The notes beneath the pieces were generated by a model, which was not told where the DNA came from, made no database searches, and saw only the letters and a program-made list of their open reading frames with translations. A stretch of DNA of 64,000 bases from Candidatus Latescibacterota bacterium (GTDB taxonomy: Bacteria; Latescibacterota; UBA2968). The stretch covers positions 7,040,001 to 7,104,000 of the forward strand of contig OZ240241.1 of NCBI GenBank assembly GCA_965198115.1, in the 5' to 3' direction. The first letter of the stretch is position 1; every line of letters begins with the position of its first letter. The position numbers were made by a program, and so were the translations under genes. Shown one piece after another: positions 385 to 17,020 of this stretch.

Positions 385-744
385 CTACCCAATCAACTGC
401 TTGACCTCGTCGCGGAACCGGTGGACAAGCTGCAGAACCGTAGCGTCGTCCATACCGACGTAATCGTGAACGGAAAGGTTCCGTGCGTTGAGGAACTGGT
501 TCCACGATTCGAGGTCGTCGATTCTCTTGAGCTGGGCGGCAAATCTCAGCGTGTCCCGAGGACTGTAGGCCTCGAGCCCTGCGTGGTCCACCTCGCGTTT
601 GAGATATTTCCAGACGTACTCGAATGTGCTCTCGAAAGCCTTGGCAAGGGCGGCCCTGCGAAGAGGACTCTCAGGGTCGGCATCGCACTCCGACAATGCC
701 GCCTCCAGTAGCTTGAAAGCGCTCAGCAGCCTTTCGTCATTCAT
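385..744 (-). CDS. HEPN-domain protein (HI0074/NTase substrate-binding type), putative RNase toxin
   Basis: 119 aa helical protein, FExTFEYVWK and RNLSVHDY (Rx4H) motif; overlaps the upstream MNT gene by 8 nt. Confidence 0.85.
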   Translation of the reverse strand: MNDERLLSAFKLLEAALSECDADPESPLRRAALAKAFESTFEYVWKYLKREVDHAGLEAYSPRDTLRFAAQLKRIDDLESWNQFLNARNLSVHDYVGMDDATVLQLVHRFRDEVKQLIG

Positions 745-1318
745 ACAACCGCATCCCCGCTTTTCGCAGAAGGCCGCACCACGCTGCGTACGAGCCTGCT
801 AAAAACGTCAAGTCATCGGCTGCTGCGTGAACGAATGACGCATCCGCGCGCCCAAGATCGACCAGCTGCGCCGCCACGATCGAATCGTCATTCCAGTCGG
901 CAGCAATGTCGAGAAGACGCGAATAGATCGCGAACTCCATCCCCTCTATATGATAAACACCGATGTCATAGTCGGAGTATGGCTTTGCAGTGCCACGGGC
1001 GCGCGAACCGAATAGAACGAACGCCGCCCCCGGAACCGCTACGTGCAGGTCTTCGATCAGGTCTGTTAGGGAGAGACCGGGCACAGACTTGTGGCGCAAA
1101 GAAAGCGAAAGGACGTCCGCCGGTGTGAGATCGAGTGCATTGAGGATTCTGCCGAGAGCCGTTGGCAAGCCGGTCTTCCCGGCCAGATAGTTCCCCACGG
1201 TGTTCCGGTGAAGGCCAAGGGAGTCGGCGAAATTCTTCACAGAGCCGAAACCGTGTGCGTGGATTGCCTGCTCTATTCGGTTGGCATCCAAGATGAGCCT
1301 GGGAGATATAGATTCCAC
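737..1318 (-). CDS. XRE-like HTH + minimal nucleotidyltransferase (MNT) fusion, putative antitoxin
   Basis: N-terminal HTH (FADSLGLHRNTVGNYLAG); C-terminal LFGSRARG...SDYDIG polymerase-beta motif. Confidence 0.85.
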   Translation of the reverse strand: MESISPRLILDANRIEQAIHAHGFGSVKNFADSLGLHRNTVGNYLAGKTGLPTALGRILNALDLTPADVLSLSLRHKSVPGLSLTDLIEDLHVAVPGAAFVLFGSRARGTAKPYSDYDIGVYHIEGMEFAIYSRLLDIAADWNDDSIVAAQLVDLGRADASFVHAAADDLTFLAGSYAAWCGLLRKAGMRLYE

Positions 1319-1460: not shown

Positions 1461-1700
1461 ATGAAGAACGTTACGATAACGCTGGAAGAGAATGTCGCCC
1501 GCTGGGTGCGGGTGTGGGCTGCGGAACACGATACCAGTGTGTCACGCTTTCTCGGCGATCTGCTGAAAAAAAGGATGCAGGACGAGCTCGAATATCAAGA
1601 CGCCCAAAGGAGATATGTGGAGCGAGAAGCAACCGTCTTGAAGGATTCTGGCCACTACCCCCGGCGGGACGATCTGCATGAGCGAAATCTGCTTCGCTGA
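1461..1700 (+). CDS. RHH/CopG-like VapB-type antitoxin
   Basis: 79 aa, MKNVTITLEE...TSVSRF..., C-terminal RDDLHER; overlaps the PIN gene. Confidence 0.8.
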   Translation: MKNVTITLEENVARWVRVWAAEHDTSVSRFLGDLLKKRMQDELEYQDAQRRYVEREATVLKDSGHYPRRDDLHERNLLR

Positions 1701-2127
1701 CACAAACCTTTTCGTTTATGCGCGTGATCGTTCGGAGGAGCAGAAGCAGCCTAAGGCCCGGGAATGGATGTTCCGGCTATGGGAGGGTCGCTGCGGTCGC
1801 ACGGGGGTTCAGGCTCTGAGTGAGTATTTCGTGACCGTCACACGAAAACTCAACCCAGGGTTGAGCGAAGACACCGCCTGGATGGATGTCGAGGATTTGC
1901 TGTCGTGGGATCCGATTCCGGTTGATGCAGGAGTGCTCAGGCGGGCGAGGGGTATCGTCATCGCGAACTCTATCTCCTGGTGGGACGCTCAGATTGTTGC
2001 CGCGGCCCAGATGAGTGGCTCTGATTTTCTGCTCACTGAGGATCTACAGGATGGACAGGATCTGAACGGACTGACCATCGTCAATCCGTTTCGCCACTCG
2101 CCGGACGATGTGCTTTCCTCGGCGTAA
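1678..2127 (+). CDS. PIN-domain VapC-type toxin
   Basis: FADTNLFVYA, QALSE, SWWDAQIVAAA, LLTEDLQ motifs. Confidence 0.9.
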   Translation: MSEICFADTNLFVYARDRSEEQKQPKAREWMFRLWEGRCGRTGVQALSEYFVTVTRKLNPGLSEDTAWMDVEDLLSWDPIPVDAGVLRRARGIVIANSISWWDAQIVAAAQMSGSDFLLTEDLQDGQDLNGLTIVNPFRHSPDDVLSSA

Positions 2128-3728: not shown

Positions 3729-5102
3729 TTGGCTGACACATTCGACTATGATGTAATTGTCATCGGTTCGGGCCCGGGCGGCGAAGGCGCTGCGATGAAG
3801 TGCACCAAGTCGGGCAAGAACGTGGCGGTGGTCGAGGAGAATCCTCTCGTCGGTGGAAACTGTACTCATCGCGCGACGATTCCGAGCAAGTCGTTGCGGC
3901 AGACGATTCAGGTGATGGCCGACCACGGGGACTACGGCGAGATCGATTTTCAGCAGATGTTGCGTTCCGCCGAGTCCGTGATCGATCAGCAGGTCGAGCT
4001 TCGACAGGGCCACTACGAACGAAATGACCTGGATGTGATCGGCGGTCGCGCACGGTTCACGGACCCGCACACGATCGAAGTGACGCAAACGGCGGGGGGC
4101 ACGGAGACTTACTCAGCCGGAGCTTTCATTCTCGCGACAGGATCCAGACCTTACCACCCGCCGGACGTCGATTTCGGCAATCCTCGAATCGTGGACAGCG
4201 ATTCCATTCTAAAGCTTCAGGAGAATCCCAAGTCATTAACGATCTACGGGGCGGGCGTGATCGGCTGTGAATATGCGTCGATTTTTCGCGGGCTTCGGAT
4301 CAAGGTCAATCTGATCAACAGTCGCGACCATCTGCTCACGTTTCTGGACGATGAGATTATCGACGCGCTGGCCTACCATTTGCGCGATCAGGGTGTCGTC
4401 ATCCGTCACAGCGAAGAGTACGATCGGGTCGAGGCAACCGGGGACGAGGTGTGTGTCTATCTCAAATCGAACAAGGTCATTCGCAGCGACATCCTGTTGT
4501 GGGCCCAGGGACGGACGGGGAATTCCGACGGCATCGGGCTGGACACAATCGGAGTTGGAATGGACGAGCGGGGCTCGATCGTCGTGGACGAGAACTACCA
4601 GACTGCGCAGTCCCACATCTACGCCGTCGGGGATGTGGTTGGATACCCCAGTCTTGCGAGCGCGGCTTACGATCAGGGTCGATTCGCAGCGACGCACATC
4701 GTAGAGGGTGTCAGCGAGACCGGTCTCCTCGAGCATATGCCGACGGGTATCTTTACGATTCCCGAGATCAGCTCAGTGGGATTGAACGAGAAGGAGCTGA
4801 CGGAAAACAAAGTGCCGTATGAAGTCGGGCACGCCTTTTTCCGCAATATGGCACGCGCTCAGATCACAGGTCGAAAGACGGGAATGCTGAAGATCCTGTT
4901 CAACCGGGAAACGCTGGAGATCCTGGGCATCCATTGTTTCGGCTACCAGGCTTCGGAAATCATCCACATCGGGCAAGCGATCCTCGCGCAGGAAGGCGAA
5001 GCGAACACGTTGATGTACTTCATCAACACGACCTTCAATTACCCGACGATGGCCGAGGCGTATCGCGTGGCGGCGTTGAATGGGCTTAATCGAGTGACCT
5101 GA
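3729..5102 (+). CDS. sthA: Soluble pyridine nucleotide transhydrogenase
   Basis: [24 protein letters not shown]-terminal [23 protein letters not shown]. Confidence 0.93.
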
Positions 5103-5314: not shown

Positions 5315-6097
5315 CTATATCTTCCCCTTACTGGCCAGATCATCGGCCAGCCTTTTTCTGTACGCCTCGACCGCTTCTCGATTCTCTTTCGCTTCGGCAG
5401 AGAGGTAGACGAAGCCGATGGCCGGGCGGTCTTTGGATTCGCTCGTGTTCCCATCGGCGCGGTGAACGGTGACGGCGTGGTGGACGGAGAGGTCTCCCGG
5501 TTCGGCCGTGAAGACGACCTCGTTCGCGAGGTCGTCGGGTTGCCCAAAGTCGGTAATGCCCTGGGAAAACCCGAGGGTCTGCGTTCGTGCGTGGGGACGC
5601 AGGCCCTTTCTGTGTGAACCCCGGATGTAGCGCAGGCAACCGTTGTCCTCGTCTGCGTGGCCGAGAGAGAACCAGGCCGTCAATCCCACGCACGGTGTGA
5701 CGTTGAAGTAATAGCCGTCCTGATGAGGAGGTGTTGGAAGACCTATGCGTGGGGGTTTTCTGAGGTATTGGACGTTTCGCCCGACGACGGGGCCGTCGAG
5801 CAGTACCTTTGACAACCGTTCGAAGCGGCTTTCGAACATCAGATCCTTGAAGTAGGAATCGTGTTCCTCCATGCGGGGCAGCTGCTTCAGGGATTGGGGA
5901 TCGTCCCTGTTCTCGTAGAAGACGTGCTCACGAGGTAGGTCCGGGACTATTTCGTCGATGTAACGTGCGACGTTCTGCTGGACGTCGACCGTCTCCTCGG
6001 CATTCAAGAATCCTCGAAGGACGGCGTAACCATCCTGGTCGAACGAGTTCTTCGCATCGCTGAAATCTTCCACGGTTACATCCTCACGTGAGTCCAT
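5315..6097 (-). CDS. Phytanoyl-CoA dioxygenase (PhyH) family 2OG-Fe(II) oxygenase
   Basis: KPP..TPPHQD, NGCLRYIRGSH, HH...VHRA..N motifs; overlaps phnA. Confidence 0.88.
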   Translation of the reverse strand: MDSREDVTVEDFSDAKNSFDQDGYAVLRGFLNAEETVDVQQNVARYIDEIVPDLPREHVFYENRDDPQSLKQLPRMEEHDSYFKDLMFESRFERLSKVLLDGPVVGRNVQYLRKPPRIGLPTPPHQDGYYFNVTPCVGLTAWFSLGHADEDNGCLRYIRGSHRKGLRPHARTQTLGFSQGITDFGQPDDLANEVVFTAEPGDLSVHHAVTVHRADGNTSESKDRPAIGFVYLSAEAKENREAVEAYRKRLADDLASKGKI

Positions 6098-7319
6098 TAC
6101 AGATCAGGTCGAATACGTCGAAATTTCTGAGGTCTGCTCTTGTTCTTTGCGTGTACGCTGGCGAAAGAGGTGCGGACAGGATCATGGGGACCATTTCCTC
6201 GTAGCGGCCGCCGTGGGAGCGCAGCGCACCTTCGAGTACGGAAAGGTCGTGATGTTCGGGCGTTTTTCCAATGACGACATCCCTGCCCGACAAGGCTACG
6301 AGCTCGCCGATTCGGTCGCCTGGCAACTCGAGCAATCGCATCGCCGCTGCCCGATCGTGAACTTCGGTGATGCCTTCGAGTTCGGCAATGTATGAGCCCA
6401 CGGCGGACGCATCGTGCTCGGGAGAGAGATGAATGGTGGCGAAGGATCCGAGCGCGCCGTGGTGCACGACGTAGGGATCGGTAATGGGGAGCAGGACGTT
6501 GATGTCCCCGTGGAACTTCGCGCTGAGCTCCGACTCGAGGTAAATGACGTTGGGTGAGCCATCGGGACGTTGCTTTGCGTTCATGCCGTGATCGGCGGTG
6601 ATGGCGATGGTCGCACCGGTTGATCTGATTCTGCCGATTTGTTCGTCGATCCGGGCGTAGAAGTCGAGGGCTCCGGCCTCGTCGTGGGCGAAGCTATGCT
6701 GGATGTAGTCGGTCGTCGACAGATAGAGGAAGTCAGCGAAATCGTTCTCGAGCAGAGCGACGCCAGCTTTCAGCACGTAAATGCTGGCATCGCCGCTGTA
6801 GATGCCGGGTCCGGGTTCCCCGACGAGTGTCTCGGCCGTATCGAACCCGTGCTGGGTGAGATCGATCTCAGAGGCTTTCTCGACAGAGATGGTGATCCCG
6901 TCGAGATCCGATGAGAGAATATCCCTCAGTTTGTCCTTGGCTGTGACCATTCCGACCCGTCGTCCCGCACGAGCGGCGCCGGCCAGGATCGTCGGACAGC
7001 GCAAATAGGAGGCATCGTTCATCATGACCTCCTGGCCCGATTCGGGATCGAGAAAATAGTTGCCCGATATGCCCGTGATGGACGGCGGGGCACCGGTGAC
7101 AATAGCAGCGTTGTTGACGTTCGTGAAAGAGGGCAGCGCCCCCCGGGCGAGTCCACGATAGCCTGCTCGGACGACGACGCGAAGATGAGGCATGAGGTTT
7201 CGATCGAGCGCGGCATCGAAGTATTCGTCCGCGGATCCGTCGAGGCAGATGACGACGAGAGGGCGATCGGGAGGATCGTAAGTACGGTCGTTGACGGTAA
7301 ACGGCACGGTCAGAGACAC
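6084..7319 (-). CDS. phnA: Phosphonoacetate hydrolase
   Basis: ICLDG, PSFTNVNN, STTDYIQH, ADHGMNAK, LPITDPYVVHHGALGS, LRSHGG motifs. Confidence 0.92.
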   Translation of the reverse strand: MSLTVPFTVNDRTYDPPDRPLVVICLDGSADEYFDAALDRNLMPHLRVVVRAGYRGLARGALPSFTNVNNAAIVTGAPPSITGISGNYFLDPESGQEVMMNDASYLRCPTILAGAARAGRRVGMVTAKDKLRDILSSDLDGITISVEKASEIDLTQHGFDTAETLVGEPGPGIYSGDASIYVLKAGVALLENDFADFLYLSTTDYIQHSFAHDEAGALDFYARIDEQIGRIRSTGATIAITADHGMNAKQRPDGSPNVIYLESELSAKFHGDINVLLPITDPYVVHHGALGSFATIHLSPEHDASAVGSYIAELEGITEVHDRAAAMRLLELPGDRIGELVALSGRDVVIGKTPEHHDLSVLEGALRSHGGRYEEMVPMILSAPLSPAYTQRTRADLRNFDVFDLICNGLT

Positions 7320-8452
7320 TCGATGAGAAGTTGGCGGAGCGACGCGGCGGTTACTCGGCGCGGGTTGTTGGCTAGGCGATCGACGTTGACGCTCTCCGCG
7401 AGGACCGAGACGTCGTCCATTCTGACACCGACATCCGACAACCGGCTGGGGCAGTCGATCGAACGCAGCAATACATCGAAGCGGTCGGCGGCTTCGGCGC
7501 TCGAGTTCGCGCCGATAGCTTGAAAAATCTCGCCAAGGGTCGTCCGGACCCGATCCTGTCCACGAGGATCCTGACAGTCGGAGTCGGTCACCGAGTCATT
7601 ATACCGCAGCCAGGCACCGAGCGTCAAAGCGACCGCGAGGCCGTGAGGTACGCCAAAGTCGGACGTGAGTTTATATGAGACGGCGTGGGCGCCCGTCGTA
7701 AAGCTGATGTCGATCGCCTTTCCGGCCAGGTGCGCCGCTTCAGCCATGGCCGAACGCGCTTCCGGCGTCGGGTCGTTAACGGCGGTTTGGATGTTGGATG
7801 CCGCCAGCGAAAGCGCTTTGGAAGCCAACCGACGTGATTCGTCGGTCGACTGGATGCTCCAGAGTGACTCGATGGCCTGACAGAGGGCGTCGAGGCCGGT
7901 GTGTGCTGTGATGGATTGCGGGAGGGCGTGTGTGAGACTGGGGTCCACGATCGCCACGTCTGGCCTGACTGAAGGGTGGACGACCGAGTACTTGATGCCG
8001 TCAACATAGACGACCGCGAAGTGGGTGGCTTCGCTCCCCGTGCCGGCAGTCGTAGGGACGGCGACAAGTGAGGGTCGTTTTGGGCCAATGCGGTCGGTGT
8101 AGAGAACGATCTCGCGACAGGTCCGATCGGTCGAGGTTGTGACGGCGATGAGCTTGGCGATATCGATGGCAGTGCCGCCCCCGATGGCAACGATGACGTC
8201 ACACGCGTGTTCGCGATACAGAGCACAGCCACGCTCGGCGGCTTCGATCGACGGGTTGGGGTCGAATTCACTGAAGCGAACGACACGCCTCGACGAAAGC
8301 GCGGGGTCGACAAGTCCTGACGCACCCGACTCCCTGTAGGCTCTTTCATCGACGACGAGGAAGACGCTGCCGCAATCCGATAACACGTCGGATAGAGCGG
8401 CGAGCGAACCAGGTCCTATGATTTCCTTCTGTTGCGATCGTGTGAGAATCAC
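7310..8452 (-). CDS. Fe-containing alcohol dehydrogenase, phosphonoacetaldehyde reductase/HEP dehydrogenase-like
   Basis: GGGTAIDIAK, PTTAGTGSEATHFAVVY, DALCQAIESLWS, TTGAHAVSY, VPHG, RLANNP. Confidence 0.85.
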   Translation of the reverse strand: MILTRSQQKEIIGPGSLAALSDVLSDCGSVFLVVDERAYRESGASGLVDPALSSRRVVRFSEFDPNPSIEAAERGCALYREHACDVIVAIGGGTAIDIAKLIAVTTSTDRTCREIVLYTDRIGPKRPSLVAVPTTAGTGSEATHFAVVYVDGIKYSVVHPSVRPDVAIVDPSLTHALPQSITAHTGLDALCQAIESLWSIQSTDESRRLASKALSLAASNIQTAVNDPTPEARSAMAEAAHLAGKAIDISFTTGAHAVSYKLTSDFGVPHGLAVALTLGAWLRYNDSVTDSDCQDPRGQDRVRTTLGEIFQAIGANSSAEAADRFDVLLRSIDCPSRLSDVGVRMDDVSVLAESVNVDRLANNPRRVTAASLRQLLIECL

Positions 8453-8517: not shown

Positions 8518-9396
8518 TCAGAACAGGTCAAGCTGCCTGGCTTGTTTCGTTTCGATCGGCCACGCGGGCAACTCGCCGACGTCGACGAGCGCAGACAGCC
8601 GATCGTGGAAGAACCGTGCGAGATGGGGCGCGTAGACGTCGGACGGTGGGTGGTGGGCGAAGAAGTAGGGCTCTCGACCTTCCCGTATCCAGCCCGCGAC
8701 AACCCGTGCCCACCGTTCGAGATGGATTTCGTTGTCCGTCGGATCCGGGGGCCCGACGAACCGGACGAACGGATGCCGGCCGAGCGCGTAGTCGCGGTAG
8801 GGCACGGGCGGTTTGTTTCGTTGCGACTCGATGATCTCGGGGTCGTTCGTCTGGAGTTGGAGGAGAGCCCGAGTGTGAAAATGAATGCGGTCGGCGCCAC
8901 AATCCGCGAGTAGTCGGTTGGCCGGTTCCTCGAGTTCACCGAAGAAGGCTGAATGCCTGAATTCGACCGCAAACCGGTAATGACCAGGCATCTGGCCGAG
9001 GAAGGTACCGAGGGCATCGAGGAGAGGCGGGCCGAACGAGGGCGGCAGGCCAATGAAAAAGGGCCCGAGCCGATCTGCAATCGGCCTCAGCAGTTCCACG
9101 AATGACAGCGCTTCGTCCTGAACGTCGACGAGTTTCCTTTCGTGTGTGACGGTTCTGGGAAACTTGAAGCAGAAACGAAAACCATCGGGCGTGTGTTCCG
9201 CCCATCGAGCGACGGTTTCGGGTTTGGGAGCCGCGTAGAACGTGGTGTTGCCTTCGACACTGTTAAATACGTGGGAATACTCAGAGAGGAAGTCACCGGC
9301 TGGAGTTCTATCCGCATAGAACTCGCCCAACCACGGTTTGTGCGTCCACATTGGGAGACCGAGGTAGTAGCCTTTGATCATTGGGACATTGAACAT
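8518..9396 (-). CDS. DUF72 (YecE-like) protein
   Basis: GLPMW, VEGNTTFYA, FKFPRTVTH, AVEFRH; exact start uncertain because it lies in a heptamer repeat. Confidence 0.88.
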   Translation of the reverse strand: MFNVPMIKGYYLGLPMWTHKPWLGEFYADRTPAGDFLSEYSHVFNSVEGNTTFYAAPKPETVARWAEHTPDGFRFCFKFPRTVTHERKLVDVQDEALSFVELLRPIADRLGPFFIGLPPSFGPPLLDALGTFLGQMPGHYRFAVEFRHSAFFGELEEPANRLLADCGADRIHFHTRALLQLQTNDPEIIESQRNKPPVPYRDYALGRHPFVRFVGPPDPTDNEIHLERWARVVAGWIREGREPYFFAHHPPSDVYAPHLARFFHDRLSALVDVGELPAWPIETKQARQLDLF

Positions 9397-9467: not shown

Positions 9468-10841
9468 GAGCTATAATCAAAAGGTGTGGAAAAAGAGAAA
9501 GGGCGACCCTACCCTTCCCGTGAGATAGTTGATTCACACAAAACCGGGTGAGAGGCCCGGTTGGGAAGGAGGATCGCCGTGAAGGAACATACGCATAGAG
9601 TCCCATTGAAGTCCATGCCGACGTGGGAGACGGTTGACGATTGGATCCGTGAAGAGATCCAGGGCCGGTTCCAGTCCATTCTGGAGGAGGAGGCGACCGC
9701 GTTCTTGGGCCGGTCGTGGTATGAGCGCCGAGCCGAGGTCGATAGCTCCAGGGGCTACAGGAACGGCTACGGCAAGCCCCGGCGTCTCTCGACGAGCTGC
9801 GGAACGATCAAGGTCCGGCGTCCCCGGGTTCGTGGTCTGGAAGAGCGGTTTGAAAGCCGCATCCTCCCCCTGTTCGCCCGGAGAACCAGGGCCATTGGAG
9901 ATCTGCTTCCCGACCTTTATCTCCACGGTCTCTCCCAGGGCGACTTCGAGTTGTCTTTGCGTGCGCTGCTCGGTGATGGCGCGCCGCTTTCGCCGACCTC
10001 GATCGCTCGTCTTCGAGGGAAGTGGGAGGTCGACTTCCAGGACTGGAAAGAAAGGCGTCTGGATAATCGCGAACTGGTCTACGCCTGGGCTGATGGCATC
10101 TACGTCAAAGCCGGGCTCGAGCGCGAGAAGGCGTGTCTGCTGGTCGTGATCGGCGCGATGAGCGACGGCAGCAAGGAGATCCTGGCGATAGAACCCGGTT
10201 ATCGAGAGTCTACAGAATCCTGGCTCACGGTGCTACGGGATCTCCGGGATCGCGGGCTCGAACATCCTGTCCTGATCGCCGCGGACGGGAATATGGGCAT
10301 CTGGGCGGCCGTTGATCAGGTCTGGCCAGAGAGCCGGCAACAACGGTGCTGGAACCACAAGATCCTCAACGTGCTCGACAAGGTCGCCAAGCGTGCACAG
10401 GCTGAAGCCCGCGCACTGCTCGTCCAGATCCCCTATGCCGGCACGAAAAAGGAGGCCGAGAAGCTCCGGAAACGCTTTGCCGCACGGTATCGCTCACAGT
10501 TCCCTGCCGCCGTGGAGACGCTCGAAAGAGACTGGGATCGGATGGTCACGTTCTACGACTTCCCGAAGGAACACTGGAAACACCTGAGAACCACGAACGT
10601 CGTCGAGAGCCCCTTTGCTTCCGTTCGGCTTCGCACAAACGCCGCCAGGCGATTCAAGAAAGTCAGGAACGCCACGACTCTCATCTGGCGTACGCTCAAG
10701 GTCGCAGAGAGCCGATTCAGGAAACTCACCGCGCCACACTTGCTACAACAAGTCTACGATCAGAAACACTCAACCGGACCGCAGGTCGAAGCCGGGAAGA
10801 TGGCCGCCTGATTTCTTTTACACACCTATTGACCTGAGCTC
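9468..10841 (+). mobile_element. IS256-family element A, intact
   Basis: Imperfect TIRs gagctataatcaaaaggtgtgg / gagctcaggtcaataggtgtgt; 8-bp TSD atcttcta at 9460-9467 and 10842-10849. Confidence 0.95.
9579..10811 (+). CDS. IS256-family (Mutator-like) DDE transposase
   Basis: RNGYG, WADGIY, AADG, QRCWNHK, LRTTNVVES; GTG start after GGAGG. Confidence 0.93.
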   Translation: MKEHTHRVPLKSMPTWETVDDWIREEIQGRFQSILEEEATAFLGRSWYERRAEVDSSRGYRNGYGKPRRLSTSCGTIKVRRPRVRGLEERFESRILPLFARRTRAIGDLLPDLYLHGLSQGDFELSLRALLGDGAPLSPTSIARLRGKWEVDFQDWKERRLDNRELVYAWADGIYVKAGLEREKACLLVVIGAMSDGSKEILAIEPGYRESTESWLTVLRDLRDRGLEHPVLIAADGNMGIWAAVDQVWPESRQQRCWNHKILNVLDKVAKRAQAEARALLVQIPYAGTKKEAEKLRKRFAARYRSQFPAAVETLERDWDRMVTFYDFPKEHWKHLRTTNVVESPFASVRLRTNAARRFKKVRNATTLIWRTLKVAESRFRKLTAPHLLQQVYDQKHSTGPQVEAGKMAA

Positions 10842-15758: not shown

Positions 15759-17020
15759 GTGCATGGTTTCATAAATATTATTACGTATGTCCTGAACATT
15801 ATTTGTAGCTTATGTTCTCCTTCAAAAGGAGGAGAACAATGCCAAGACGTTCGCCTTATGTGGTGCTACTGTCTGAGAAGGAACGGGTCGACCTCGAGCG
15901 AATGGCTGGACAATATACGTTATCGTATTATCAAGTGATCCGATCGAAAATCGTGCTTCTCGCCGCCGAGGGATTATCCAACAAGATTATCGCCCAACGG
16001 TTGGATGTCCCGCGTCCGATCGTAAGCAAATGGCGTAAGCGCTTTTTCGAAGAGCGTCTTTCGGGACTCGAAGATAGATCTCGTCCCGGGCGCCCGCCCG
16101 GTTTTCCCCCCTCAGGTGGTCGTTCAGATCAAGGCGCTGGCGTGTGAACTACCGAGCGAGAGCGGGATACCGCTCTCGCGGTTCAGCTGTTCCGAGATTG
16201 CCGCCGAGGCAGTGCAAAGGGGCTTCGTTGCCAAGATCAGCGGCGCCACTGTCTGGCGCTGGTTGAACGAGGACGCGATTCGTCCTTGGTATCATCGCTC
16301 CTGGATTTTCCCACGGGACCCGGACTTCCAAACCAAAGCAGGTAGAGTCCTTGATCTGTATCACCGCCAATGGCAAGGAAAGCCTTTAGGGCCGAGGGAA
16401 TATGTACTTTCTGCCGACGAAAAGACCAGTATTCAAGCACGAGCTCGCAAGCACGTTACCCTACCGCCAGCCTCGAACAGAGCGGCACGCGTTGAAACAC
16501 GAATACGAGCGGAAAGGAGCCCTGGCCTATCTGGCTGCTCTCGACGTGCACAATGGTCGAATCTTCGGTCTCTGTGAGTCTTCTTCGGGTATCGAGCCCT
16601 TCAACCGGCTCCTGAGCCTGATCATGAGCCGGAAACCCTATTGCTCGGCAAAGAAAGTCTACCTCATCGTGGATAATGGCTCCTCGCACCGAGGGCAAAC
16701 ATGCATCGACCGTATCCAGGGGAAGTGGCCAAACATCCACCCCGTTCACCTTCCGATCCACGCAAGCTGGCTCAATCAGATCGAGATCTACTTCTCGATC
16801 CTCAAACGCAAGGCTCTGACACCTATCGAATTTGCATCGCTCGAAGAGCTTGAGGCAAGAATCCTCGGTTTTCAGGAACGCTACGGACGTATCGCCACAC
16901 CCTTCAAATGGAAGTTCACACGAACAGATCTCGCGGAGATGATCGACAAACTCAGGTTCTACGATACGCCCTTGGCAAAGTCTGCTTAGAATACGTCACC
17001 GTATTTGAGAACAGGAGTAC
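15759..17020 (+). mobile_element. IS630-family element, copy 1
   Basis: TA at both ends (15757-58, 17021-22); imperfect TIRs sharing gt...ttc..aaata....acgtat; HTH and DDE ORFs. Confidence 0.9.
15839..16989 (+). pseudogene. IS630 transposase split over three frames (15839-16147, 16116-16577, 16402-16989)
   Basis: HTH, then ADEKTSIQAR, HEYER.G, VDNGSSH, HASWLNQIEIYFS; +1 shifts at gttttcccccc (16101) and gttgaaacac (16491). Confidence 0.8.

What the first reader, a model, noticed from the sequence alone, without database searches (positions are those of the whole stretch)
5315..8452. Fe-ADH + phnA + PhyH operon: candidate non-canonical phosphonate catabolic pathway
Seen: three overlapping minus-strand genes, namely an Fe-ADH of the phosphonoacetaldehyde reductase (PhpC/FomC-like) type, phosphonoacetate hydrolase, and a 2OG-Fe(II) PhyH oxygenase. 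Known: the canonical route is PhnW-PhnY(aldehyde dehydrogenase)-PhnA, while PhpC-type ADHs are normally biosynthetic and sit with pepM/ppd. None of phnW, phnY-ALDH, phnZ or pepM is in this window. Inference: the ADH may run oxidatively (2-hydroxyethylphosphonate to phosphonoacetaldehyde). The oxygenase could supply substrate (for example by hydroxylating or dealkylating a C2 phosphonate) or perform the missing oxidation, feeding PhnA.
Basis: partly seen in the sequence, partly recalled or inferred. Interest (0 to 1): 0.72.

Follow-up and report, generated by a model that had tools for sequence, protein, structure and literature searches.

The report
Hydroxyethylphosphonate breakdown genes lacking phnY
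Two adjacent genes for phosphonate breakdown (a likely 2-hydroxyethylphosphonate dehydrogenase and a phosphonoacetate hydrolase) sit beside an oxygenase that is probably a bystander, which makes this a variant of a route published in 2026 with one linking step unaccounted for.

Summary
The three genes are real: a PhpC-type dehydrogenase, phnA (over the family cut-off, catalytic residues kept) and a PhyH-fold 2OG/Fe oxygenase. This protein is 51% identical to a degradative PhpC listed there. The genome has no pepM, ppd, phnW or phnY match over cut-off, but it has an intact phnX 354 kb away. Across 168 genomes of the phylum, phnX accompanies 22 of 27 phpC genes. The oxygenase looks like a passenger: about 300 paralogues in this genome; orthologue next to phnA in 2 of 29 genomes; very weak PhnY* score; phpC-PhyH linkage also in a genus without phnA. 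An FzmG-like PAA oxidase role has chemical precedent and is not excluded (about 12%). One open point remains. Ten genomes of the phylum put an HEP dehydrogenase beside phnA with no PhnY detected. Eight of them lack phnX too, and seven of those eight lack this PhyH. Verdict: new variant of a known pathway, modest interest.

The parts
7310..8452 (-). phpC: PF00465 dehydrogenase, likely HEP dehydrogenase / PAA reductase
   Evidence: 51% identical to WP_283435124 (P0241), a degradative PhpC in Table S1 of PMC13576164. K154, D188, Q192, T252, H256, Y260, H270 and R359 are the same as in that protein. It falls in a 27-row clade (SH-aLRT 97, quick tree) with pepM- and phnX-linked homologues.
6084..7319 (-). 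phnA: phosphonoacetate hydrolase
   Evidence: TIGR02335 476 bits, cut-off 407.55. PDB 1EI6 E 8e-110 and 3SZY E 2e-102. D27, T66, N87, K128, K130, D204, H208, D243, H244, H286, H287 and H369 are present.
5315..6097 (-). PhyH-family Fe(II)/2-oxoglutarate oxygenase of unknown substrate (start possibly at 6073); probably a passenger
   Evidence: PF05721 E 3e-27. H125, D127, H212 and R224 are invariant in 40 relatives. AlphaFold model pLDDT 91; closest folds SnoN, PHYHD1, SnoK and EctD at 18-25% identity. GmPhnY* model 23.6 bits against a 500 cut-off, rank 51 of 56 hits in this genome.
8518..9396 (-). DUF72 gene directly upstream; part of the inherited gene block, no phosphonate link known
   Evidence: PF01904; upstream of phpC in G001, G010, G007 and G002 too.
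3729..5102 (+). sthA soluble transhydrogenase, convergent; marks the conserved block boundary
   Evidence: NF003585 677 bits, cut-off 465; same position in G001, G010, G007 and G002.
9561..10811 (+). IS256 transposase between the Zn-ADH gene and DUF72; not part of the pathway
   Evidence: NF033543; not found at this place in G001, G010, G007 or G002.

Best explanation
The locus likely encodes a degradative PhpC that oxidises 2-hydroxyethylphosphonate to phosphonoacetaldehyde and a PhnA that hydrolyses phosphonoacetate, while the aldehyde is likely cleaved by the genome's unlinked PhnX and the PhyH oxygenase is probably a passenger. Step 1 is HEP + NAD+ -> PAA (inferred from homology; shown in vitro for the P. 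fungorum homologue). Step 2 is PAA -> acetaldehyde + Pi by PhnX at G000 C1:7401693-7402442 (gene shown, coupling inferred); this pull makes the unfavourable step 1 run. PhnA releases acetate + Pi from phosphonoacetate taken up as such, or made in small amounts by non-dedicated aldehyde oxidation (inferred). History (inferred from synteny): phpC left its usual phnX partner and settled in a ZnADH-DUF72-[phpC]-PhyH<-sthA block in the ancestor of two genera. phnA then entered between phpC and PhyH in this genus, or was lost from the other.
For: PhpC identity and residues. No pepM, ppd, phnW, phnY, phnJ, PbfG-like or TIGR03364 gene over cut-off in a 100%-complete single contig. phnX over cut-off and full length. 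Of 27 phpC-bearing genomes among 168, phnX is adjacent in 17 and elsewhere in 5, including G000; 2 of the other 5 keep a phosphonatase fragment next to phpC. Of 29 genomes with the PhyH orthologue, it is adjacent to phpC in 4, to phnA in 2, and to phnX or pbfG in 0; co-occurrence is near chance (phpC 6 vs 4.7 expected, phnA 13 vs 11.7; kin not independent). In G010 and G007 it follows phpC in genomes where no phnA was found; in G002 it is missing from the block while phpC stays. 62 flanking ORFs of orthologues in 24 other loci gave no PhnA, Fe-ADH, ALDH or HAD family at Pfam E<=1e-14. The genome holds at least 152 (capped at 150 scored candidates) and about 306 PhyH-like genes; 76 of 2,235 tight downstream neighbours are PhyH-like. 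PMC13576164 shows PhpC + PhnX releasing phosphate from HEP.
Against: phnA is packed directly behind phpC in G000 and G001 and lies 1.8 kb from it in G005, where no phnX was found (89% complete). In this phylum an HEP dehydrogenase sits beside phnA in 42 of 68 phnA genomes, which argues that PhnA is fed from HEP rather than only scavenging. The phpC-PhyH junction is kept in 4 genomes of two genera at 58-79% PhyH identity. A review I recall says PhnWX and PhnWAY rarely co-occur, so holding both phnX and phnA needs a reason. No enzyme was assayed and no RNA data were found.
Confidence: 0.55

Rival explanations
1. phpC-phnA is a working HEP route without PhnY and without the PhyH. The aldehyde would reach PhnA through a housekeeping aldehyde dehydrogenase, through a second oxidation of the PAA hydrate by the dehydrogenase itself, or by PhnA cleaving PAA directly.
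For: 8 genomes (G005, G099, G119, G127, G159, G164, G166, G167) have phpC or a pbfG-like gene beside phnA with no PhnY, no alternative ALDH and no phnX detected. 7 of the 8 lack the PhyH orthologue; G159, G164, G166 and G167 are 94-96% complete, G119 and G127 only 75% and 58%. Five other genomes place an ALDH unrelated to PhnY (28-32% identity) beside phnA, so substitution happens. PAA is partly hydrated, 3.5:1 aldehyde to hydrate. One review states that PhnA accepts phosphonoaldehydes (PMC7916636).
Against: G000's nearest ALDH is a class-wide enzyme (71-90% identical across 12 sequences from 12 other genomes) that lacks a His and an Arg invariant in the 7 PhnY sequences compared. Another review says P. 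fluorescens PhnA degrades only phosphonoacetate and 2-phosphonopropionate (PMC10574752), and the primary papers were not available. G000 has PhnX, so it does not need this route. The window's PhnA shows no active-site change against its relatives.
Confidence: 0.22
2. The operon is self-contained: PhpC makes PAA, the PhyH oxygenase oxidises PAA to phosphonoacetate as FzmG does, and PhnA releases phosphate.
For: Gene content fits exactly in G000 and G001, neither with PhnY. FzmG, a 2OG/Fe dioxygenase, converts PAA to phosphonoacetate with kcat/Km about 6 x 10^2 M-1 s-1 (PMC4303578 passages). The PhyH subfamily keeps several basic residues (K71, K114, R167, R171, R224) that could bind an anion. 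Matching longest-contig lengths among close relatives of all three proteins hint at a few more copies of the trio (indirect).
Against: The orthologue is adjacent to phnA in only 2 of 29 genomes and absent from 7 of the 8 genomes that most need such an enzyme. It sits behind phpC in G010 and G007, where no phnA was found and the product would be a dead end. It is among the least PhnY*-like PhyH genes of its genome; best E among 40 relatives is 7.5e-17. PhyH neighbours are common by chance here. No direct comparison with FzmG or DhpA was possible.
Confidence: 0.12
3. The PhyH hydroxylates a phosphonate: either C1 of HEP or phosphonoacetate, as DhpA, FzmG and PhnY* do, to feed the unlinked PhnZ-like enzyme, or an alkylphosphonate to supply HEP to PhpC.
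For: A phnZ-like gene exists in G000 and in 76 of 168 genomes. The phpC-PhyH linkage appears older than the phnA insertion.
Against: No listed phnZ-like hit lies next to a PhyH orthologue; the closest pair I found by comparing coordinates is about 23 kb apart in G167. The PhnY* model score is very weak. 7 of 29 orthologue-bearing genomes have none of phpC, phnA, phnX or pbfG.
Confidence: 0.07
4. The dehydrogenase has drifted away from phosphonates or acts reductively (PsrA-like aldehyde detoxification or sulfoacetaldehyde reduction), and the neighbourhood with phnA is accidental.
For: PhpC is only 56% identical between G000 and G001, against 88% for PhnX, 75% for PhnA and 79% for PhyH. The best PDB hit is 6JKO/6JKP, a sulfoacetaldehyde reductase according to PMC13576164. 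PhpC enzymes are faster as reductases in vitro.
Against: It keeps Y260, the Tyr that the paper says is Phe in sulfoacetaldehyde reductases (the 6JKO alignment shows F there), and the other predicted substrate residues. Orthologues sit beside phnX in 17 genomes. The genome has no detected PAA source that would need reduction.
Confidence: 0.04

Closest known systems
Degradative PhpC (HEP dehydrogenase) clusters phpC-phnX and phpC-phnY-phnA (Piazza et al. 2026, PMC13576164; read parts 1-5 of 8 of the text and part 1 of 3 of the supplement)
   Same: Same enzyme family and predicted active-site residues; 51% identical to a Table S1 member; no pepM, ppd or phnW; linked to a C-P hydrolase gene.
   Different: Every phnA cluster in Tables S1 and S2 also shows phnY, which was a selection criterion of the paper. 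Here phnA has no phnY in the locus or genome, phnX is unlinked, and a PhyH gene follows. The term 'Latescibacter' does not occur in the main text.
PhnW-PhnY-PhnA pathway of Sinorhizobium meliloti and stand-alone phnA of Pseudomonas fluorescens 23F (passages of PMC10574752, PMC3266647, PMC7916636)
   Same: PhnA with the full metal, nucleophile and lysine set; phnA without phnW and phnY has a precedent in strain 23F.
   Different: No transaminase, PhnY, LysR regulator or transporter in the locus; the upstream gene is an alcohol dehydrogenase.
FzmG, DhpA and PhnY* phosphonate 2OG/Fe(II) oxygenases (passages of PMC4303578, PMC8942020)
   Same: A 2OG/Fe oxygenase with the HxD...H triad beside phosphonate genes; FzmG oxidises PAA to phosphonoacetate.
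   Different: FzmG and DhpA are biosynthetic and PhnY* pairs with PhnZ. This protein scores 23.6 bits on the GmPhnY* model (cut-off 500) and its orthologues are not tied to phosphonate genes.
pbfG-phnA clusters in the same phylum
   Same: HEP dehydrogenase gene directly beside phnA, often with the aldehyde dehydrogenase unlinked or undetected.
   Different: The dehydrogenase there is a Zn-ADH scored with TIGR03366 (mostly just under cut-off; equating it with PbfG is my inference), not PhpC; no PhyH is adjacent.

Membership tests
PhpC / HEP dehydrogenase | PF00465 fold, grouping with pepM- or phnX-linked PhpC rather than generic Fe-ADH | tested here: met
   27-row clade at SH-aLRT 97 containing WP_283435124, apart from a 23-row generic clade. 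Quick tree only; the careful search did not finish.
PhpC / HEP dehydrogenase | Metal ligands (Asp191, His/Gln195, His260, His274) and predicted HEP-binding Lys157, Thr256, Tyr264, Arg349 | tested here: met
   D188, Q192, H256, H270, K154, T252, Y260 and R359, identical to P0241. Mapped to the paper's numbering by spacing, not by direct alignment with the P. fungorum protein; R359 is the least sure.
TIGR03405 (PsrA / Phn_Fe-ADH equivalog) | Score over curated cut-off 423.7 | tested here: not met
   205 bits. The paper's own Table S1 member P0241 scores weaker still (no hit at E<=1e-55), so this model does not define PhpC.
PhpC / HEP dehydrogenase | NAD+-dependent HEP oxidation, Zn2+ use | not testable with these tools
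   Needs an enzyme assay.
Degradative HEP cluster (phpC + phnX or phnY-phnA) | phpC clustered with phnX or with the phnY-phnA pair | tested here: not met
   phnA adjacent, phnY not found, phnX 354 kb away. It works like such a cluster in trans but does not meet the paper's clustering criterion.
Biosynthetic PhpC cluster | pepM and ppd in the genome | tested here: not met
   Best pepM hit is methylisocitrate lyase; ppd best 40.7 bits against 312.5.
PhnA phosphonoacetate hydrolase | TIGR02335 over cut-off; two-metal ligands, Thr nucleophile, two Lys | tested here: met
PhnA phosphonoacetate hydrolase | Hydrolysis of phosphonoacetate | not testable with these tools
   Needs an assay.
PhyH-type Fe(II)/2OG oxygenase | PhyH-type fold with HxD...H triad and conserved Arg | tested here: met
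PhnY* phosphonate hydroxylase | Similarity to GmPhnY* (NF052437) | tested here: not met
   23.6 bits against 500; rank 51 of 56 in the genome. The model is narrow: no gene in the genome exceeds 97 bits.
PhnY* phosphonate hydroxylase | Adjacent phnZ | tested here: not met
FzmG / DhpA-like oxygenase | Sequence orthology to FzmG or DhpA | not tested
   No tool returned these sequences.

The most novel reading that the evidence does not exclude
PhpC, the PhyH oxygenase and PhnA form a self-contained catabolic route HEP -> phosphonoacetaldehyde -> phosphonoacetate -> acetate + phosphate, in which a 2-oxoglutarate oxygenase replaces PhnY: a catabolic FzmG-type aldehyde oxidase, and a substrate for one of the hundreds of orphan PhyH enzymes of this lineage.
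Probability: 0.12. Interest if true: 0.65.

Novelty: new variant of a known kind. Interest (0 to 1): 0.3.

Why it matters
HEP is described as a major component of marine dissolved organic phosphonates, and its dedicated catabolism was characterised only in 2026. This locus and its relatives extend that route to another phylum, probably Latescibacterota (inferred from source names of near relatives, not tested). One family there uses PhpC + PhnX and another uses a PbfG-like enzyme + PhnA. The part a specialist might follow up is not the oxygenase but the recurring HEP-dehydrogenase + phnA pairing with no PhnY or PhnX detected. It points to an unidentified way of getting from the aldehyde to phosphate, and a two-enzyme assay tests it directly.

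Tried and rejected
The genome-contig scan with the single ADH protein returned one distant locus, so cross-phylum synteny in named genomes was not obtained. The metagenome scan with alignment A1 kept 80 of 577 loci; none had a PhnA or PhyH match by tblastn at E<=1e-8, but many are short. Among the top 23 loci (78 of 162 ORFs scanned), 8 had pepM + ppd, 1 phnX, 2 a phnX-phnW fusion and 1 C-P lyase genes. Plasmid searches gave no close PhyH relative (best 31%) and two proteins named phosphonoacetaldehyde reductase as top ADH hits. The protein atlas gave only generic PhyH clusters. PDB sequence and fold searches for PhyH gave no phosphonate enzyme. The promoter and terminator scan was near shuffle level. 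Sequencing runs: no RNA holder listed. Earlier-findings look-ups were empty. The primary PhnA papers PMC3102601 and PMC4321816 are not held, so PhnA specificity rests on two reviews that disagree. The ADH model was not fold-searched, and the representative-library search for PhyH was never collected. Paper searches for phpC + phnA without phnY or with a PhyH found no description of this arrangement; the library lacks most subscription papers. G093 (424.7 bits on TIGR03250, no phnA) was left out of the PhnY list. Phylum searches score only the top 8-15 candidates per genome and use my E-value thresholds, so 'not found' is not absence.
Full report
Observation. The window has three tightly packed minus-strand genes at 7310-8452, 6084-7319 and 5315-6097, preceded by DUF72 at 8518-9396 and closed by a convergent sthA. 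They match PF00465 Fe-ADH, TIGR02335 PhnA over cut-off, and PF05721 PhyH. Whether they overlap depends on which start codons are used.

The dehydrogenase is a PhpC. Named relatives at about 50% identity are annotated phosphonoacetaldehyde reductase. One cluster contains WP_283435124, which Table S1 of PMC13576164 lists as a degradative PhpC beside phnX; the window protein is 51% identical to it. Both carry K154, D188, Q192, T252, H256, Y260, H270 and R359 (window numbering). By spacing these match the metal and predicted HEP-binding residues given in that paper, including the Tyr that is Phe in sulfoacetaldehyde reductases. In a quick tree of 92 sequences the protein lies in a 27-row clade (SH-aLRT 97) with pepM- and phnX-linked homologues, apart from generic Fe-ADHs. 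The paper shows that P. fungorum PhpC oxidises HEP with NAD+ (kcat/Km 270 M-1 s-1), that the equilibrium favours HEP, and that adding PhnX drives phosphate release. I read parts 1-5 of 8 of the text and part 1 of 3 of the supplement.

PhnA is ordinary. All residues named for the S. meliloti enzyme in a review passage are present. Against about 127 relatives, the six positions where the window departs from a 90% consensus are not among the catalytic residues.

Genome context (8.43 Mb, one contig, 100% complete, 5.1% contamination). No match passes cut-off for pepM, ppd, phnW, phnY, phnJ, the PbfG-like family TIGR03366 or the FAD oxidase family TIGR03364. The best PhnY-model hit (382.7 bits against 635.65) is a class-wide ALDH lacking a His and an Arg invariant in the seven PhnY sequences compared. 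A full-length phnX passes cut-off at C1:7401693, and a phnZ-like gene is just under cut-off at C1:7446546. HEP -> PAA -> acetaldehyde + Pi is thus complete in trans.

Phylum survey of 168 genomes. PhpC-clade genes occur in 27, phnX in 32, phnA over cut-off in 68, PhnY in 33 used of 34 listed, PbfG-like genes in 60 and the PhyH orthologue in 29. Cross-tabulation with a 3.5-kb adjacency limit gives the following. Of 27 phpC genomes, phnX is adjacent in 17 and elsewhere in 5; phnA is adjacent in 3 (G000, G001, G005) and PhyH in 4 (G000, G001, G007, G010). The trio exists in 2 genomes, both of the window's genus. Block comparison shows ZnADH-DUF72-phpC-PhyH<-sthA in G010 and G007 without phnA, and the same block without PhyH in G002. 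The PhpC sequences of these two genera form one clade (SH-aLRT 96), so the phpC-PhyH junction looks like one inherited event.

The oxygenase. It has an intact HxD...H triad and a well-conserved subfamily, but nothing ties it to phosphonates. Its orthologue is adjacent to phnA in 2 of 29 genomes and to phnX or pbfG in none; co-occurrence with phpC (6 vs 4.7 expected) and phnA (13 vs 11.7) is near chance. Flanking genes elsewhere are mostly sugar-type oxidoreductases, hydrolases and housekeeping genes (62 ORFs from 24 loci). It ranks 51 of 56 genome hits on the GmPhnY* model. The genome has about 300 PhyH-like genes, so 3.4% of tight downstream neighbours and 12.6% of two-gene neighbourhoods contain one. 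Against this, gene content in G000 and G001 fits a PAA-oxidase role exactly, and FzmG shows that a 2OG oxygenase can do that reaction (PMC4303578 and PMC8942020, passages). I could not compare the protein with FzmG directly.

What stays unexplained. In 42 of 68 phnA genomes an HEP dehydrogenase gene is adjacent. In 32 of these PhnY or another dedicated ALDH is present; in 10 none was found. Two of the 10 (G000, G001) have phnX elsewhere. The other 8 have none detected, and 7 of those 8 lack the PhyH orthologue; a deeper ALDH search in 5 of them found only housekeeping ALDHs. Possible fillers are a housekeeping ALDH, double oxidation by the dehydrogenase, or PhnA acting on the aldehyde; two reviews disagree on the last.

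Verdict. This is a degradative phpC with phnA, completed in trans by phnX, with a probable PhyH passenger (0.55). Rivals are a PhnY-free, PhyH-independent feed into PhnA (0.22), an FzmG-like PhyH (0.12), a hydroxylase role for PhyH (0.07) and a non-phosphonate role for the ADH (0.04). All functional steps are inferred; none was assayed. Four paper searches found no report of this arrangement, in a library that lacks most subscription papers. Novelty: new variant of a known kind; interest 0.3.

Noticed in passing
L220:8200-12045 (G098), L221 (G094), L223 (G105); also G096, G097, G147: An ALDH only 28-32% identical to PhnY, closest in the PDB to betaine aldehyde dehydrogenases, occurs in 6 of 168 genomes and lies beside phnA in 5, behind a pbfG-like gene in G094, G097, G098 and G105. 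The PhnA of the three examined belongs to a divergent clade. Candidate non-orthologous replacement of PhnY.
   Followed up: partly
G159, G164, G166, G167, G099 (L274, L225, L273, L226, L228): pbfG-like gene directly before phnA with no PhnY, alternative ALDH or phnX detected in genomes 91-96% complete. In three, a 156-180 aa ORF without Pfam match follows phnA on the same strand.
   Followed up: partly
whole genome G000: About 300 PhyH-like oxygenase genes, roughly 4% of 7,381 called genes.
   Followed up: partly
G000 C1:7437376-7450083 (L214, L306): phnZ-like HD gene (206 bits, cut-off 214.6) with an unmatched 284-aa gene directly upstream and PhyH genes nearby. The genome's best GmPhnY*-model hit (97 bits) lies about 8.5 kb away. 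phnZ-like genes occur in 76 of 168 genomes.
   Followed up: partly
window 7310-8452 against L037 (G001): PhpC is only 56% identical between the two genomes of the genus, while PhnX is 88%, PhnA 75%, PhyH 79% and SthA 89%; active-site residues are kept.
   Followed up: partly
family f2, genus g7 (e.g. L039): phnA over cut-off in 15 of 15 genomes with no phpC, pbfG-like, phnY or phnX found; it lies beside sulfatase genes in G025.
   Followed up: no
window 385-1318 (-) and 1678-2127 (+): Nucleotidyltransferase plus HepT-like pair and a PIN-domain gene; they look like toxin-antitoxin modules.
   Followed up: no
window 9561-10811; 15812-16989: IS256 transposase not found at this site in four relatives. 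Three short ORFs at 15812-16989 look like a split transposase (recalled resemblance, not tested).
   Followed up: no
G000 C1:498238-498729 and C1:2318282-2319612: A partial second phnX-like sequence (165.6 bits) and an aldehyde dehydrogenase gene in two pieces.
   Followed up: no
L269:1538-3562 (G001), L057:6023-7981 (G021): A DUF6785/DUF6784 gene lies next to phnX in G001 and next to phpC in G021; possibly a transporter, two cases only.
   Followed up: no
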